This document shows, piece after piece, positions 48,747 to 63,076 of a DNA stretch of 64,000 bases (position 1 is the stretch's first letter; each line of letters starts with the position of its first letter). A model generated the notes under the pieces. That model was not told where the DNA came from. It saw only the letters and a program-made list of their open reading frames with translations, and made no database searches. Source of the stretch: a virus (taxonomy: Duplodnaviria > Heunggongvirae > Uroviricota > Caudoviricetes); the IMG/VR virus record IMGVR_UViG_3300045988_162656, one strand, 5' to 3'. Both the position numbers and the translations under genes were made by a program.

Positions 48747-49133
48747 ATGTCTGACAAAAACATTGAATTTATAGAAAGTCGCTATGCTGCTTTTATCGCA
48801 GGGCTGATTGAATCCTCACCTATGAGTCAGGCCCAAATAGCCAGACTTATTGGTTATAAAAATGCCAACAACCTTTCTTTAATTAAAAGTGGTAAAATTC
48901 CTTTGCCTATCGATAAGGTTCGTCCGCTGGCGTTGGCGCTGGGTATTGAGCCAAGTCGTCTTATGATGATGGTGCTGGAAGAACGCCAACCTGAACTCGC
49001 AGCATTTTTATACAAAGAAGGCACCGCTCCTCTTAACGAGGACGAAAAACAGGTTCTTGCTGCATATAACGAGCGATTCGGTAAAGAGAAAGGCGCATCA
49101 CAAAAGGTTGTTGAGGCCATAAAGTCTCTATGA
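48747..49133 (+). CDS. XRE-family helix-turn-helix transcriptional regulator
   Basis: HTH segment SQAQIARLIGYKNANNLSLIKSG; convergent with integrase; AT-rich promoter region upstream. Confidence 0.55.
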   Translation: MSDKNIEFIESRYAAFIAGLIESSPMSQAQIARLIGYKNANNLSLIKSGKIPLPIDKVRPLALALGIEPSRLMMMVLEERQPELAAFLYKEGTAPLNEDEKQVLAAYNERFGKEKGASQKVVEAIKSL

Positions 49134-50231
49134 AAAATTTAGACGAATAAGCTCTGTTGATAGACGATCTCCCTTGAATTTGTGGTCAATTTCGTCTAAA
49201 TCCGGTTGCTCTACGATTGATGCGATGTACGTTGAGAAACTTTCTAAGGCGTCTCGCATCTCGTCCATATAATCGTGCCGGTCGTAGACCCGATCTATCC
49301 CCTCAAGACTGTGGTTCATTATTTTGCGTGATACCTCCTGGCTTATACCTAATGCTGGGAAGTAACTACGCGCAGTACGACGCAAATCTCGAGGTGTAAA
49401 TGGCGCAAGCTCCATCAGTTCTGGTCGTTCCAGAATACGACGTAATGCCTGGGCTATTGCCACTTTAGACATAGGAAGGTCTTTCCCGATTTTTTTATTC
49501 GAAGGCACGAGCCACTGGCTGTCTTTACCGTATTCGAACAACTCTTCAATGCATGTGCGCATTAATGTGCTTAAAGGCAGCGAATGCTCACGTGCTGACT
49601 TGTTTCTCTTGCCTTGATTCCAAACTCCACGCTTAAGATTGAACTCACTTTTTTTAGCCCTCAGTACTTCGTCAGGTCGTCTTGCTGATACAAGACACAG
49701 CCTGGCCGCCCATTTTGTACCAGCGCACACATTGAAGTAGTCCCATATATTCCAGAACACCCATACCTCTGCGTCGGTCAGCTTCCGCTCGCGAGGTGTG
49801 GGCTTTGCGCCACCGGCAACTTTGTTTAGTGACATATCGTTTAACGGTGACACGTCTATCATCCCCTGGAAGGCGCACCAGCTAAGGAACTGCTTCATCA
49901 GAGAGAAAACGCGGCGGCCCATAACAATTTTGCCATCCAATATTAGAGGGTTGACCAGTTGGTTAACCATGAACCTATTAATGTCACTTACTTTTACATC
50001 AGCAATGTGCGGCAAAACATGTATCAAAATACAATGAACAGCGATCTCTGGCCGACGTCTGGTTATCAGCAGAGATAAGCGAGTGAATAACATGAATGCG
50101 TCCGAGAATATCATGTTATTGTTGATCTGTGAGATCATAATGGCCTGCATTTGAGATGCTCTTTCGAGATACTCAATTGCCTCTTTTGAGGTGTTTTCTG
50201 CTGCGCGTGCTCTGTCAAAGCTATTTTTCAT
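49128..50231 (-). CDS. tyrosine site-specific recombinase / integrase
   Basis: C-terminal catalytic region with TPRDLRRT and HSLEGIDRVYDRHDY motifs. Confidence 0.8.
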   Translation of the reverse strand: MKNSFDRARAAENTSKEAIEYLERASQMQAIMISQINNNMIFSDAFMLFTRLSLLITRRRPEIAVHCILIHVLPHIADVKVSDINRFMVNQLVNPLILDGKIVMGRRVFSLMKQFLSWCAFQGMIDVSPLNDMSLNKVAGGAKPTPRERKLTDAEVWVFWNIWDYFNVCAGTKWAARLCLVSARRPDEVLRAKKSEFNLKRGVWNQGKRNKSAREHSLPLSTLMRTCIEELFEYGKDSQWLVPSNKKIGKDLPMSKVAIAQALRRILERPELMELAPFTPRDLRRTARSYFPALGISQEVSRKIMNHSLEGIDRVYDRHDYMDEMRDALESFSTYIASIVEQPDLDEIDHKFKGDRLSTELIRLNFS

Positions 50232-52577: not shown

Positions 52578-52664
52578 TGGCGGAGAGTAATGGAATCGAA
52601 CCATCATCGCTTGCGCAATGGGACGGTTTTCAAGACCGCTTGAGCACCATGCTCCCTACTCTCC
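52578..52664 (-). tRNA. tRNA-Ser (anticodon TGA), type II with long variable arm
   Basis: hand-folded: acceptor GGAGAGT/ACTCTCC, anticodon loop CTTGAAA, T-loop TTCGATT, 3' CCA encoded. Confidence 0.8.
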
Positions 52665-52888
52665 GGCCGTTGTGGTGGCCGGTACTGAATCTCCGGCATA
52701 CGGTGCAGCCAATTAGGACTACGGACGATCACCGCTCGCGAAAGGGAAGATTTGCGGCCGCATTTCCCTAACATCCAAGAAAGCTATCGCATTAGTCTGC
52801 GAATCCACCACAACGGTAAGATCACTACCTTTCGACCAGTCATTGTGCACATGAACGACGATTAACCGTAATGATCTTATCGTTGTAT

Positions 52889-52964
52889 TGGTGCCGGTTA
52901 GCGGACTCGAACCGCTGACATCCTGCTTACAAGGCAGGCGCTCTACCAACTGAGCTAAACCGGC
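52889..52964 (-). tRNA. tRNA-Thr (anticodon TGT)
   Basis: acceptor GCCGGTT/AACCGGC, D-arm AGCTCAGTTGGTAGAGC, anticodon loop CTTGTAA, T-loop TTCGAGT, CCA encoded. Confidence 0.85.
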
Positions 52965-52968
52965 AATT

Positions 52969-53055
52969 TGGTGGGGAGTGATGGAGTCGAACCACCCGAG
53001 TTGCAATGACAGTAGATTTACAGTCTACCCAGCTGCCCCTACGGACTAACTCCCC
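52969..53055 (-). tRNA. tRNA-Tyr (anticodon GTA), type II
   Basis: acceptor GGGGAGT/ACTCCCC, anticodon loop ACTGTAAATCT, long variable arm, CCA encoded. Confidence 0.8.
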
Positions 53056-53060
53056 TAAAT

Positions 53061-53135
53061 TGGCGATGGTGGGTGGATTCGAACCACCGACCAGTTGGTT
53101 AACAGCCAACTGCTCTACCGCTGAGCTACACCATC
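53061..53135 (-). tRNA. tRNA-Asn (anticodon GTT)
   Basis: acceptor GATGGTG/CACCATC, anticodon loop CTGTTAA, T-loop TTCGAAT, CCA encoded. Confidence 0.85.
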
Positions 53136-59899: not shown

Positions 59900-60649
59900 T
59901 TAATTAGATAGGGGATCAATAAACCGCCGTGCTTCTTCCAGTTCTTCTGGAAAGTGGGCGGAAATAAGGCGCTCTGGAACGATTTCCATTAGCCAGATAG
60001 CGGAGAAAATTGCGCGTATGCGCTTGCTGCGAGGGATGGTGCGCAAACACTCCAGAATCCACTCAAAATAGCTTTCCTGAATCGGGTTGAACTGCATGTC
60101 TCCCATATGCTTAAAGCTAACAAGAGAGTCATCCAGACGGGTTGTTGCGCGTCTGGCTAATTTCTCTTCGAATATCTCAACCAGCTCTGGCTGCCACAAA
60201 TGCTGTGGGCGCGGCAGCTTGTCCCACAGCCGTCGTGCAGCTGCGGAAAGAACGGTGGAGATAAAGTAGTCGTATGAGCAGCAATAGCGGTCAGCAAACT
60301 GGCGTGCTTTCCATAGAGACGTTTTATTGGCAGTCGACAACTCCTGATAAGGCAGGCGTTTTAACCCGGTGGTGAACGGAGCTGTTTCAAAGTGTTCGCG
60401 ACCGTGCGTCAGCATGATATTTGAGTACTGACGTTTGTATGCCTCCGTAAACAGACAGGTGGCCATAAGAGGATGCATGTCTCGGTAATCAAACCACTTC
60501 GTCTCGAAGAGTTCAGCCTCGTCTTTACAGCGCGACAAACCAATGTTTTCAGCGACCCACTTGTCCATAACAGCGGTATTCCACTCTGTCATGAAGTCGT
60601 ACTGGTCGTTGTCGATGGTATCGAAAAAGATTTGGCTCATGTGGCTCAC
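59900..60649 (-). CDS. hypothetical protein
   Basis: 249-aa ORF. Confidence 0.4.
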   Translation of the reverse strand: MSHMSQIFFDTIDNDQYDFMTEWNTAVMDKWVAENIGLSRCKDEAELFETKWFDYRDMHPLMATCLFTEAYKRQYSNIMLTHGREHFETAPFTTGLKRLPYQELSTANKTSLWKARQFADRYCCSYDYFISTVLSAAARRLWDKLPRPQHLWQPELVEIFEEKLARRATTRLDDSLVSFKHMGDMQFNPIQESYFEWILECLRTIPRSKRIRAIFSAIWLMEIVPERLISAHFPEELEEARRFIDPLSN

Positions 60650-60914
60650 CTGGTAGGTAGTTACTTACTTATCACAATGGACGGATGATAGCGACTGGTG
60701 TCAGTTTTTGGAAGTGAAAACGGAAGGGAGTTGTTCTGGTGGTGTCTTTTAAAAGACCTGCTTCCGTATATATTTAATAAGTTACTTATTATTTATATAC
60801 AGAAACAGGCTCCTAATGGATACCAAGAACAACATAATTTGACTCCAACTCCAGATGCTATGTCATTGACAGATTTATCAAGGGAGATCATGTTAGAATT
60901 AGTGTTTTAGCCTC

Positions 60915-61988
60915 GTGGATATTGTCACCATGCGCATGAATAGACTTCCAGGATATGGCCTTCCCGAACTGGCTTTTTGGCCTCAGCCTAAATATGAACG
61001 GAATAAATGGTCGATGTTCTGTCTGAAACTCCGTAATGATGGAACCCTTGCTTGGTATCGGCGATATGTTGATCGTGGTATGCCAAACCACGCTGTTGAT
61101 GACGACTACGATAACTATCCTGAAGCAAGAAAAGCGGCATTAGAGCTGAATAAAAACGTGAGCTTTGACATTGAAAAACTTCCTCTATCTATGTTTCAAA
61201 AGAAGTCATTGCGTTTGAAAGTTGACAAAGCACTCAAAGCCAAATCACGTCTCATGGATGAAGAGTATATAATGCTCAACGAAGCAATTAAGGCACACGC
61301 CAACGATCCGCGAGTGACATTAAATGAGTTAATAATTAACCCAGATTACGAAACTTTGCGTCAACCCCTTTTTGACGTGCTAAGCGAGATGCCTTACTTA
61401 CATTTTGTTTTTCTTCCCAAATTCCAAGTTTCACTTCAACTCGTTGCTCCTAACACTTGGGAATGTTCATATAACAACAAAGCTAAGACAGCGAAGATCT
61501 GCTACCAAGAACGCATAGCCAGAGGTTTTGGTTTATCAGGTGCTGCACATTGGGGAAAAACAAAAGCGACTATTCGCTCAATGCTTCTGCCGCGTGCTAA
61601 CCGGTTACTGCAACTCGCCAGCGTAAAAAGAATGCTGGATGAAGCTCTCAGGAATGGGCAAAAGGTACTGGTTGTTGGCAACTTTGTTTTCTGGTTTGAG
61701 GACAAAAATCAGGTAGGTTGGAGTGTTAAAGTTGCTAGCGAAAGCGAAACCACCTCAAGAGGCAATACGCTCTGGAAAGAAGGAACTATCATTTCAAAAA
61801 ATCACGGTCGAATTGTCGTGCTGCCGTATACAAAAGAAAACGGTAAACATGTAAAAGGTTATACCAAGAATGCCCCTAACGACGGCAATGCAATTCCGAG
61901 ACATAAGGATGAGTATGTTGAGTTGCCCTTTGAAATTTTGGATGGTGACTTGATGTTCAGTCTGTTCGGTGAGCTTAACTACGAATAG
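60915..61988 (+). CDS. hypothetical protein (isolated plus-strand gene)
   Basis: 357-aa ORF on the opposite strand from neighbours, downstream of inverted-repeat element at 60755-60812. Confidence 0.4.
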   Translation: MDIVTMRMNRLPGYGLPELAFWPQPKYERNKWSMFCLKLRNDGTLAWYRRYVDRGMPNHAVDDDYDNYPEARKAALELNKNVSFDIEKLPLSMFQKKSLRLKVDKALKAKSRLMDEEYIMLNEAIKAHANDPRVTLNELIINPDYETLRQPLFDVLSEMPYLHFVFLPKFQVSLQLVAPNTWECSYNNKAKTAKICYQERIARGFGLSGAAHWGKTKATIRSMLLPRANRLLQLASVKRMLDEALRNGQKVLVVGNFVFWFEDKNQVGWSVKVASESETTSRGNTLWKEGTIISKNHGRIVVLPYTKENGKHVKGYTKNAPNDGNAIPRHKDEYVELPFEILDGDLMFSLFGELNYE

Positions 61989-62048
61989 CTTTCATAGAAC
62001 GAAATATTTCTAAGGCTGTCCAATGCAGACCAGCCTTAGAGATTTATA

Positions 62049-62408
62049 TCAACCTTTCTTCATTAACTCGCGTTTAATTTCATCGGTACGCATCGTGACA
62101 TCGGCAGCAGTGATCGCCTCGTTAAGCTTCACGATGTCCTCGATTTCCTGCGGTGACTTCTCTGCCAGATGGAAAATAGCAGCACGAATCACATCAGAGC
62201 GGGTGAATTTCTCGAAGCGAGGGATGAACTTCATCATCTCCAGCAGTTCGAAGTATTCGTCCTCCAGTGACATTGTGCGGCTTTTAATTTTCTCTTTGCC
62301 ACGAGTCGGGCGTCCCTGTGGTCTGACTGGTTGGCGCAAAGGAGTTGTGTTCTTAGCCGGTGCATCAGACTCTTTGCGCTTTGCTAGGTCACCCATTTTC
62401 ATGGACAT
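62049..62408 (-). CDS. small basic DNA-binding partition protein candidate (ParG/ParB-like)
   Basis: 119 aa, basic N-terminus; stop overlaps nothing, start abuts parA stop; classic parA-small-gene operon layout. Confidence 0.4.
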   Translation of the reverse strand: MSMKMGDLAKRKESDAPAKNTTPLRQPVRPQGRPTRGKEKIKSRTMSLEDEYFELLEMMKFIPRFEKFTRSDVIRAAIFHLAEKSPQEIEDIVKLNEAITAADVTMRTDEIKRELMKKG

Positions 62409-63076
62409 TATTCTTCTTCCTCCAGACTCAACAGATAATCTACAAATTCTTCAAACTCGGCTTCCGCCTTTTTGTCGCGCTCGCTACCGGTCATTTCAAA
62501 GATAGAACGACCAGACTCTTCCGCATCATCATAGACGTTGCGGTTATATAGATTGACTGGCGCAGACTCGATGCCAAACGTCTCAACAATCTCTTTAGCC
62601 GCCAGAATGCGAGACACTTGTGATGGCAAAGCCGGGCACTGGTTCATGACCGCGCGGACCTTCACTTTATCGTTTACATTGCGAACATTGTCGATAATAG
62701 GATCGATGTCACGTAAAGATTTCAAATCACGACGCTTAGGACGCAGCGGGATAATGATAACGTCAGCCATCAGCATCGCTTGTCGCTGAATTTCGGAGTC
62801 GAAGCCACCAGCATCTACCACTACAAACTCAGCTCTACCCTGAAGCGATTTTAGGTGCTTAATGATGTCATCCTGAACGTATGCAAAAGGAATCAGCTCA
62901 AGGTCTTCGTTCTGTCGACGGTCTTCACACCAGCTCGTTGTCGTGCGCTGAATATCTATATCGGTAATATAAACCTTCTTCTTCTTTTTGACTTTCAGGC
63001 AAACGGCAATTTGCTGGGCAACGGTGGATTTGCCAGGCCCGCCCTTTGTGCCGCCAACCACAAAGATCTTGGTCAT
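62408..63076 (-). CDS. parA: ParA-family partition ATPase
   Basis: deviant Walker A GGTKGGPGKST; 222 aa. Confidence 0.8.
   Translation of the reverse strand: MTKIFVVGGTKGGPGKSTVAQQIAVCLKVKKKKKVYITDIDIQRTTTSWCEDRRQNEDLELIPFAYVQDDIIKHLKSLQGRAEFVVVDAGGFDSEIQRQAMLMADVIIIPLRPKRRDLKSLRDIDPIIDNVRNVNDKVKVRAVMNQCPALPSQVSRILAAKEIVETFGIESAPVNLYNRNVYDDAEESGRSIFEMTGSERDKKAEAEFEEFVDYLLSLEEEE

What the first reader, a model, noticed from the sequence alone, without database searches (positions are those of the whole stretch)
60915..61988. Isolated plus-strand gene of unknown function between the helicase block and the partition operon
This is the only sizeable plus-strand gene in the right half, and its upstream region carries the inverted-repeat element. 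The strand switch and private regulatory element suggest separately regulated cargo.
Basis: inference. Interest (0 to 1): 0.4.

Follow-up and report, generated by a model that had tools for sequence, protein, structure and literature searches.

The report
Unknown cargo gene in phage-plasmid hotspot
A real, strongly conserved 352-residue gene of unknown fold sits as swappable cargo in a hotspot of an SSU5-type phage-plasmid, and its relatives lie in prophage cargo sites and anti-phage defence islands, so it is a plausible but untested new defence gene.

Summary
The ORF is real. RefSeq calls it from GTG 60915, but homologues and a conserved upstream element put the start at ATG 60930 (352 aa, stop 61988). 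The window is an SSU5/pHCM2-type phage-plasmid, identical to Shigella sonnei plasmids.

The gene lies in a 1.23-kb cassette (about 60818-62045) with its own conserved extended -10 promoter and terminator hairpin. Related plasmids have this slot empty, or filled with a DUF2971/PDC-S31 defence candidate, other genes, or both. It is therefore dispensable cargo, not replication or partition machinery.

The upstream inverted repeat (60757-60809) is real but belongs to the backbone. It is present in every variant, including the empty slot, so it is not a private regulator.

The protein matches only PHROG 22329. It has no Pfam, NCBIfam, PADLOC or PDB match, and two AlphaFold models have no Foldseek match. 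It is under purifying selection (dN/dS 0.16).

Relatives are rare and patchy across Proteobacteria. They sit beside Gabija, Wadjet, PDC-S06, PD-T7-3 and Septu-like genes, at prophage ends, and in Pseudomonas in the gop position of a gop-beta-cII-like module.

Best reading: a stand-alone prophage-borne anti-phage protein with a variable N-terminal part and a constant C-terminal module. The evidence is guilt by association only.

The parts
60757..60809 (.). AT-rich inverted repeat with 26-nt arms. It is a backbone feature that marks the left edge of the cargo slot, and it is not part of the cassette.
   Evidence: Repeat and fold: (z -4.2); unique in the window. Conserved in Cyrano, SSU5, pHCM2, p009_B and the empty-slot plasmid. 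On the minus strand it is followed by TCTTTT, so it may be the par-operon terminator or a centromere or operator site (inference).
60818..62045 (+). Variable cargo cassette of 1.23 kb: promoter region, gene and terminator.
   Evidence: BLAST breakpoints against Cyrano and SSU5. Junction alignments with five other slot variants. The cassette is >=99% identical in 37 of 5426 complete E. coli genomes, always on plasmids of about 108-115 kb.
60891..60899 (+). Putative extended -10 promoter element TGTTAGAAT.
   Evidence: Read from the sequence; one occurrence in the window. Conserved as TGTTA(A/G)AAT in the diverged Klebsiella and pHCM2 cassettes while the flanks differ. The generic two-hexamer scan found no promoter. 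Function is inferred.
60930..61988 (+). CDS of 352 aa plus stop. A soluble basic protein (pI 9.3) with no transmembrane segment, member of PHROG 22329.
60930..61664 (+). Residues 1-245: the more variable part. The model shows two beta-strand/helix units, each followed by a long helix (88-122 and 208-241).
   Evidence: AlphaFold models, pLDDT mostly above 85 here. Column entropy 2.0-2.5 in the beta units against 0.6-0.9 in the C-terminal part. dN/dS 0.13-0.21. hhalign finds no sequence-level internal repeat.
61665..61985 (+). Residues 246-352: conserved beta-rich C-terminal module with core motif W..G.I(I/V)S.N.G..(I/V)V.P...(D/N)G..V.G(H/Y)T(K/R)N....R.
   Evidence: Invariant columns. dN/dS 0.09. 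The same module ends proteins with unrelated N-terminal parts, including zinc-ribbon plus coiled-coil forms. pLDDT 65-75 in the second model.
62006..62043 (.). Hairpin with a 13-bp stem between the convergent cargo gene and the ParB-like gene; probably a terminator that belongs to the cassette.
   Evidence: -18.5 kcal/mol, z -3.7. Each alternative cassette carries a different hairpin at this junction.
59900..60649 (-). Backbone neighbour: phrog_2500 gene of unknown function, first gene of the helicase/primase block.
   Evidence: Conserved in all slot variants.
62049..63076 (-). Backbone neighbours: small ParB-like gene (119 aa, phrog_5111) and ParA ATPase (222 aa).

Best explanation
The gene is a self-contained accessory ('moron') cassette in a cargo hotspot of an SSU5/pHCM2-type phage-plasmid. 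The hotspot lies between a conserved inverted repeat and the stop codon of the ParB-like gene.

I think the cassette is most likely transcribed from its own extended -10 promoter while the element is maintained as a plasmid prophage. Its product is most likely a stand-alone anti-phage (superinfection-exclusion or abortive-infection type) protein.

The inferred division of labour is that the faster-evolving N-terminal two-thirds recognises or regulates. The near-invariant C-terminal module of about 100 residues, which is also fused to unrelated N-terminal regions in other bacteria, would carry the constant effector or interaction activity.

Shown here: the gene is real, is under purifying selection, is dispensable cargo, shares its slot with another defence candidate, and has relatives next to defence genes. 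Inferred: the defence role, expression during lysogeny, and the sensor/effector split. The biochemical activity is unknown.
For: - Cargo status: breakpoints at 60817/60820 and 62046/62047, an empty-slot variant and five different fillings, and presence in 138 of 668 related plasmids.
- The same slot holds a DUF2971 protein that matches defence candidate PDC-S31 (E 4e-41) in Cyrano, SSU5 and pHCM2. pHCM2 carries both cassettes.
- The family is rare and patchy. Relatives occur in 128 of 185,579 species-representative genomes across Alpha-, Beta- and Gammaproteobacteria. There are 142 hits among 1.84 billion representative proteins and 35 loci in IMG/VR.
- Neighbours are hypervariable: 312 neighbour clusters in 78 loci, with no universal partner.
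- At least 34 of 78 loci have, within two genes, a member of a cluster whose representative carries a defence hallmark. Four representatives match a PADLOC model: PDC-S06, PD-T7-3, beta/PD-Lambda-2_C-like and (weakly, E 3.6e-5) a type IV restriction-like protein. The others were typed by Pfam only: the Gabija-like pair (AAA_15 plus OLD-type TOPRIM, with a UvrD-type helicase) and a 561-aa AAA_15/AAA_21 ATPase.
- Individual contexts. Wadjet-like genes plus a Septu-like pair in Vibrio. Between SMEK and SLATT genes inside a Pseudomonas prophage tail region. Beside a Prok-E2/ThiF system. Last gene after int in a Salmonella lambdoid prophage. Next to the integrase in an Aeromonas element.
- In nine Pseudomonas loci the gene occupies the gop position upstream of clear P4 beta (E 1e-15) and cII (E 1e-24) homologues, and no gop homologue is present. 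gop-beta-cII is an experimentally shown anti-phage system (PMC9122126).
- Purifying selection is strongest on the C-terminal module. The promoter element is conserved and the cassette has its own terminator.
Against: - No experiment and no homology ties the protein to any known defence, toxin or enzyme family.
- Two AlphaFold models give no Foldseek match in PDB or BFVD at E <= 0.001.
- The C-terminal module has no invariant acidic or histidine catalytic set, so no activity can be proposed.
- Many neighbour hits are to PADLOC 'PDC' candidates that are themselves unvalidated.
- Recurrent neighbourhoods within one genus or class may be single ancestral islands counted several times.
- The 34-of-78 figure is a lower bound from tested clusters only, and no matched background rate was computed.
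- Phage accessory slots also carry anti-defence genes.
- One distant relative, in a planctomycete, sits among housekeeping genes.
Confidence: 0.5

Rival explanations
1. Counter-defence or host-takeover gene. The protein helps the phage-plasmid establish itself by neutralising a host immune system or a competitor's system, rather than protecting the host.
For: Phage and phage-plasmid accessory slots carry anti-defence genes as well as defence genes; SSU5-group elements of S. sonnei carry the Rad anti-retron gene (bioRxiv 10.1101/2025.09.12.675607). The family has 35 IMG/VR loci. The protein has no recognisable enzymatic domain, as is common for inhibitor proteins.
Against: Many relatives lie in chromosomal islands with no phage genes in the 8-10 kb of flanking DNA examined, directly beside Gabija-like, Wadjet-like, PDC-S06 or PD-T7-3 genes. 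At 352 aa, with about 50% identity across classes, it is large and conserved for a typical anti-defence protein (own knowledge).
Confidence: 0.15
2. Toxic effector of a gop-beta-cII-like module that here travels alone. The protein would be a growth-arresting toxin analogous to P4 Gop. It would be restrained by beta where beta is present, and elsewhere by its own N-terminal region. This is a mechanistic sub-version of the defence reading.
For: Nine Pseudomonas loci show target(+), beta(+), cII(-) with no gop homologue. This is the same order and strands as P4 gop-beta-cII. In P4, Gop is toxic without beta and the system protects against lambda and P1 (PMC9122126).
Against: There is no sequence similarity to P4 Gop, which is 133 aa (hhalign probability 0.6%). 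A gap of about 270 bp separates the target from beta, against 2 bp in P4. All nine loci are in one genus and mostly in one chromosomal hotspot, so this may be a single event. The window and most other loci have no beta or cII.
Confidence: 0.15
3. Plasmid-maintenance or replication accessory of the phage-plasmid, such as a partition adaptor, copy-number regulator or initiator helper, as its position between the replication and partition modules might suggest.
For: Its position between the helicase/primase block and parA/parB-like genes. The N-terminal two-thirds is basic (pI 9.4-9.7), which is compatible with nucleic-acid binding.
Against: It is absent from about 80% of related plasmids that have the same par and replication genes, including SSU5, Cyrano and an empty-slot plasmid. 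Relatives in chromosomes have no par or rep neighbours. There is no HTH, RHH or Rep domain.
Confidence: 0.05
4. Lysogenic-conversion factor unrelated to phage defence, for example one that modulates host physiology or virulence in Shigella, Salmonella or Klebsiella.
For: It is carried by phage-plasmids of pathogens. In Salmonella it lies next to an SspH-like NEL effector gene at a prophage end.
Against: There is no signal peptide or transmembrane segment. Relatives occur in free-living marine and soil bacteria such as Vibrio, Shewanella, Bradyrhizobium and Caulobacteraceae, which argues against a host-specific virulence role.
Confidence: 0.1

Closest known systems
gop-beta-cII anti-phage system of satellite phage P4 (Ghisotti 1990; Rousset 2022, PMC9122126)
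   Same: In nine Pseudomonas loci the family occupies the position and strand of gop, upstream of true beta and cII homologues. Like gop-beta-cII, it is cargo in a hotspot of a temperate mobile element.
   Different: There is no similarity to Gop (133 aa). The gap to beta is wide. In the window and in most loci there is no beta or cII, so the protein acts alone there.
DUF2971 / PADLOC candidate PDC-S31 cassette
   Same: It occupies exactly the same slot of SSU5-type phage-plasmids (Cyrano, SSU5_037, pHCM2). It is a single-gene cassette with its own terminator.
   Different: It is an unrelated protein on the opposite strand. PDC-S31 is already listed as a defence candidate, whereas this family is in no defence catalogue I could search.
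[quoted passage not shown]
   Same: A fixed backbone site holds interchangeable cassettes with their own promoters and terminators, in either orientation. The fillings include known or candidate defence genes (PMC9122126).
   Different: The host element is a plasmid prophage, and the slot lies between the partition and replication modules, bounded by a 53-bp inverted repeat. I found no description of this slot in the phage-plasmid papers searched.
PHROG 22329 (unknown function)
   Same: Full-length match, E 9e-256.
   Different: The PHROG carries no annotation, so membership adds no functional information.

Membership tests
PHROG 22329 | Full-length match to the profile HMM | tested here: met
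   E 9e-256; residues 6-357 of the 357-aa GTG-start ORF match profile positions 1-352 of 352.
Known or candidate anti-phage defence proteins (PADLOC-DB 2.0.0) | Match to any of the 5027 models | tested here: not met
   No family at E <= 1. Newer catalogues such as recent DefenseFinder models were not available. Accession numbers were not found in the paper library or in the DefensePredictor supplements.
Defence-island gene (guilt-by-association criterion) | Relatives recurrently adjacent to known defence genes in unrelated genomes, with variable neighbourhoods | tested here: met
   At least 34 of 78 species-representative loci have a neighbour within two genes whose cluster representative matches a PADLOC model or carries Gabija-like or AAA_15/21 Pfam domains. 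There are 312 neighbour clusters. No matched background rate was computed.
P4 Gop (toxin of gop-beta-cII) | Sequence homology to Gop | tested here: not met
   hhalign probability 0.6%. tblastn with Gop finds nothing in the nine loci.
P4 Gop (toxin of gop-beta-cII) | Located upstream of beta on the same strand, with convergent cII | tested here: inconclusive
   Met in nine Pseudomonas loci. Not met in the window or in most other loci. The gap is about 270 bp, against 2 bp in P4.
P-loop NTPase | Conserved Walker A GxxxxGK[ST] after a beta strand | tested here: not met
   Residues 204-211 (GAAHWGKT) fit the pattern in this protein. However, the lysine position varies across homologues (K/Q/E/R/N/I) and the segment starts a helix that follows another helix.
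Plasmid partition or replication proteins | Conserved with the par/rep backbone and carrying a ParB, RHH or Rep domain | tested here: not met
   Absent from most related plasmids and from the empty-slot variant. No such domain is present.
PUR/Whirly-like nucleic-acid-binding repeat | Beta-beta-beta-beta-alpha repeat pair with significant structural similarity | tested here: inconclusive

The most novel reading that the evidence does not exclude
The family is a new single-protein abortive-infection or exclusion system. Its constant C-terminal 'S-x-N-x-G ... P ... G-x-T-(K/R)-N ... R' module would be a previously undescribed effector domain with a new fold. That module would be reused with different sensor regions across phyla and could replace the Gop toxin in gop-beta-cII-type modules. 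The slot beside the par operon would then be an unrecognised defence hotspot of SSU5/pHCM2 phage-plasmids, which are common in Shigella, Salmonella Typhi, E. coli and Klebsiella.
Probability: 0.25. Interest if true: 0.65.

Novelty: new member of a known kind. Interest (0 to 1): 0.45.

Why it matters
SSU5/pHCM2-type phage-plasmids are widespread in clinical Shigella sonnei, Salmonella Typhi, E. coli and Klebsiella, and they are usually written off as cryptic. The surveillance study I read found no defence system in pHCM2-like or pWPMR2-like elements (bioRxiv 10.1101/2025.09.12.675607).

If this cassette and its DUF2971 slot-mate are anti-phage genes, these elements shape the phage susceptibility of important pathogens. 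That matters for phage therapy and for competition between mobile elements.

The protein has no detectable fold relative, and its C-terminal module is reused in other architectures. A positive phenotype would therefore add a new effector domain to the defence repertoire. The cassette is short (1.2 kb) and self-contained, so the test is simple.

Tried and rejected
- Sequence homology: Pfam, NCBIfam, PADLOC and PHROGs gave only the unannotated PHROG 22329.
- PDB by sequence and by profile gave nothing real. A hit to the designed beta-trefoil MITSUBA-1 (E 2e-4, 36 residues) was treated as chance and did not recur with profiles.
- Structure: two AlphaFold2 runs. The second used added distant relatives and raised the C-terminal pLDDT from about 45 to about 70. 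Foldseek against PDB (twice) and BFVD gave no match at E <= 0.001.
- Internal duplication of the two beta/helix units is not supported by hhalign.
- The Walker A look-alike at residues 204-211 was rejected because the lysine is not conserved.
- P4 Gop homology was rejected.
- Searching for more distant relatives with C-terminal-domain and distant-subfamily profiles returned few new sequences.
- Bulk PADLOC and Pfam scans of 150 neighbour proteins gave only aggregated top-25 lists dominated by redundant GajA models, so they were of limited use.
- Literature: no paper in the library mentions the accession numbers tried, and neither do the DefensePredictor supplements. The phage-plasmid papers I read do not describe this slot.
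- The generic sigma-70 scan found no promoter. The extended -10 element was found by eye and supported by conservation.

Full report
**What the window is**

The 2-kb region around the finding is 100% identical to Shigella sonnei plasmids of about 108 kb and 99% identical to many E. coli plasmids. It is about 80% identical to Klebsiella phage-plasmids, and its flanks match Salmonella phage SSU5 and Escherichia phage Cyrano.

The window encodes the following:
- a Rep3-type initiator and a DNA polymerase III alpha subunit;
- RecA and a DNA ligase;
- a DnaB-like helicase and a primase;
- a ParA ATPase, a tyrosine recombinase and a tRNA cluster.

It is therefore an SSU5/pHCM2-type phage-plasmid.

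**Checking the observation**

The ORF at 60915-61988 exists, and RefSeq annotates the same coordinates as a hypothetical protein.

The true start is more likely ATG 60930, giving 352 aa. PHROG 22329 aligns from residue 6, and 114 homologues begin at the equivalent Met-Arg. The ATG is conserved in the Klebsiella and pHCM2 copies, while the GTG is not.

The gene is plus-strand between minus-strand blocks. The only other free-standing plus-strand ORF I found in the right half is a 128-aa ORF at 48747-49133, which has no Pfam match.

dN/dS against the Klebsiella copy is 0.157. By region it is 0.13 for residues 1-125, 0.21 for 126-245 and 0.09 for 246-352. This is a functional coding gene.

**The gene is swappable cargo**

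BLAST of the region against Cyrano and SSU5 shows backbone homology ending at 60817/60820 and resuming at 62046/62047. The slot content differs between related elements:
- Cyrano has one minus-strand DUF2971 gene.
- SSU5 has three minus-strand genes, one of them DUF2971.
- E. coli p009_B has two other genes.
- pHCM2 of S. Typhi CT18 has both a 75%-identical homologue of this gene and a DUF2971 gene.
- E. coli pZ1323HEC0016-2 has an empty slot.

Junction alignments show that all variants diverge right after the inverted repeat and converge at the stop codon of the ParB-like gene. Each cassette brings a different terminator hairpin.

Of 668 related plasmid records, 138 carry the gene. In complete E. 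coli genomes the cassette is in 37 of 5426, always on plasmids and never on chromosomes. In one plasmid it is interrupted by IS1.

The gene is therefore dispensable for replication, partition and the phage cycle.

**The inverted repeat**

The repeat at 60757-60809 is real and unique in the window. However, it is conserved in every slot variant, including the empty one, where it lies about 26 bp beyond the ParB-like stop codon.

It is a backbone element at the left edge of the hotspot. By inference it could be the par-operon terminator (it is followed by TCTTTT on the minus strand), a centromere, or an operator. It is not a private regulator of this gene.

**The cassette's own signals**

TGTTAGAAT at 60891-60899 has the form of an extended -10 promoter. 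It is conserved as TGTTA(A/G)AAT in the diverged Klebsiella and pHCM2 cassettes, although the surrounding sequence differs.

A 13-bp-stem hairpin at 62006-62043 (-18.5 kcal/mol, z -3.7) lies between the convergent genes.

**The protein**

It has no match in Pfam, NCBIfam, PADLOC or PDB sequences, whether searched with the single sequence or with profiles.

The protein is soluble and basic (pI 9.3) and has no transmembrane segment.

AlphaFold2 models the N-terminal 220 residues confidently. They form two beta-strand/helix units, each followed by a long helix. The C-terminal part is beta-rich, and its confidence rose to about 70 after adding distant relatives.

Foldseek finds nothing at E <= 0.001 in PDB or BFVD. 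Weak Pur-alpha hits are not significant. hhalign finds no internal sequence repeat.

A Walker-A-like string at residues 204-211 is not conserved.

The most conserved part is the C-terminal module. The same module of about 100 residues terminates proteins with quite different N-terminal regions, including zinc-ribbon plus coiled-coil forms. This fits a constant functional module joined to variable recognition or regulatory parts.

**Distribution**

The family is small and patchy:
- 346 clusters among 5.8 billion protein clusters;
- 142 hits among 1.84 billion representative proteins;
- relatives in 128 of 185,579 species-representative genomes, spread over Gamma-, Beta- and Alphaproteobacteria;
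- 35 IMG/VR loci.

**Genomic company**

In 78 species-representative loci, the neighbours within four genes fall into 312 clusters, so there is no universal partner. The neighbours that recur have defence signatures (cluster counts):
- PDC-S06, an AAA_13 ATPase (E 8e-191), lies directly upstream in 10 alphaproteobacterial loci. It is usually preceded by a HipA-like kinase and a 374-aa unknown gene.
- PD-T7-3 (E 1e-34) lies directly downstream in 6 Caulobacteraceae-type loci.
- A Gabija-like pair lies up- or downstream in 5 Pseudomonas loci. It consists of an AAA_15/OLD-TOPRIM ATPase and a UvrD-type helicase, typed by Pfam.
- An AAA_15/21 ATPase occurs in 3 Pseudomonas loci. In Vibrio a similar ATPase is followed by a PtuB-like partner.
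- A weakly type IV restriction-like protein (E 3.6e-5) occurs in 3 loci.
- Beta plus cII occur in 7 loci.

Altogether at least 34 of 78 loci have such a neighbour within two genes. This is a lower bound, because only the recurrent clusters were tested.

Single contexts add further cases:
- Wadjet-like genes;
- SMEK and SLATT genes inside a prophage tail region;
- a Prok-E2/ThiF system;
- the position after int at the end of a Salmonella lambdoid prophage;
- an Aeromonas integrative element.

The slot-mate DUF2971 protein matches defence candidate PDC-S31 (E 4e-41).

**The gop lead**

Nine Pseudomonas loci have target(+), beta(+), cII(-). They contain clear P4 beta and cII homologues but no gop homologue. 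This is the gene order of P4 gop-beta-cII.

That system protects against lambda and P1, and its Gop protein is toxic without beta (PMC9122126).

The target is not homologous to Gop. The gap to beta is about 270 bp. All nine loci are in one genus. I therefore treat this as a lead and not as proof.

**Conclusion**

The repeat, however, is not the gene's own regulator.

The best-supported reading is a stand-alone, prophage-borne anti-phage protein of a new, structurally unrecognised family, at about 0.5 confidence. The rivals are counter-defence, a Gop-like toxin, maintenance and conversion roles.

All functional claims rest on association. The decisive experiment is a phage-challenge assay of the 1.2-kb cassette.

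Noticed in passing
window 60757-60809; L102 about 1060-1115: The 53-bp AT-rich inverted repeat is conserved in all SSU5-type variants. In the empty-slot plasmid it lies about 26 bp downstream of the ParB-like stop codon. It is a candidate par-operon terminator or centromere/operator, and it is the fixed left boundary of the cargo hotspot.
   Followed up: partly
L101 (pHCM2, NC_003385.1 32224-34104); L001; L002; L102; L103: The slot between the repeat and the ParB-like gene holds 0 to 3 cassettes. It is empty in pZ1323HEC0016-2. It holds DUF2971 (PDC-S31) in Cyrano and DUF2971 plus two unknown genes in SSU5. pHCM2 holds both this gene and DUF2971, and p009_B holds two unknown genes of 135 and 245 aa.
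   Followed up: yes
L058, L061, L062, L065, L066, L071, L073 and others (e.g. L062 4518-11029): In Alphaproteobacteria the homologue is often the last gene of a conserved same-strand run. The run is a small 111-aa ORF (no match), a HipA-like kinase (427 aa), an unknown 374-aa protein, a PDC-S06 AAA_13 ATPase (about 890 aa) and then the target, with a constant 46-bp gap. In three loci the ATPase is missing. This could be a composite system or a travelling island.
   Followed up: partly
L011, L012, L025, L031, L033, L034, L041, L053, L060: These Pseudomonas loci have the target followed by P4 beta and convergent cII homologues, with no gop homologue present. Most lie in the same chromosomal hotspot next to a P-type ATPase and a MerR gene.
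   Followed up: partly
window 60915 versus 60930: RefSeq annotates the GTG start (357 aa, WP_243668210.1). Homologue alignment and upstream conservation favour ATG 60930 (352 aa).
   Followed up: yes
window 62049-62408 (minus strand): The 119-aa gene upstream of parA is annotated 'RelE/ParE putative toxin' in phage Cyrano. Here it gave only phrog_5111 and a weak match to a short aCcr1-family model. From its position it is more likely the small centromere-binding partner of ParA.
   Followed up: partly
window 48747-49133 (+) and 49128-50231 (-): A second free-standing plus-strand ORF in the right half: 128 aa, HTH-like by eye, with no Pfam hit. It overlaps the end of a tyrosine recombinase gene by 6 bp. 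It may be part of the lysogeny or resolution control region.
   Followed up: no
window 52578-53135 (minus strand): Cluster of four tRNA genes (Ser-TGA, Thr-TGT, Tyr-GTA, Asn-GTT) in a 2.2-kb stretch with no ORF of 120 aa or more.
   Followed up: no
NZ_CP047004.1 32759-34763 (hits H35/H104): In one E. coli phage-plasmid the cassette is interrupted by an IS1 element, so loss of the gene is tolerated.
   Followed up: no
proteins P0239, P0242, P0255, P0237: The conserved C-terminal module also ends short proteins that have an N-terminal CxxC...CxxC zinc ribbon and a long charged coiled coil. It also ends longer forms of 400-560 aa whose source organisms I did not check. None has a Pfam match.
   Followed up: partly
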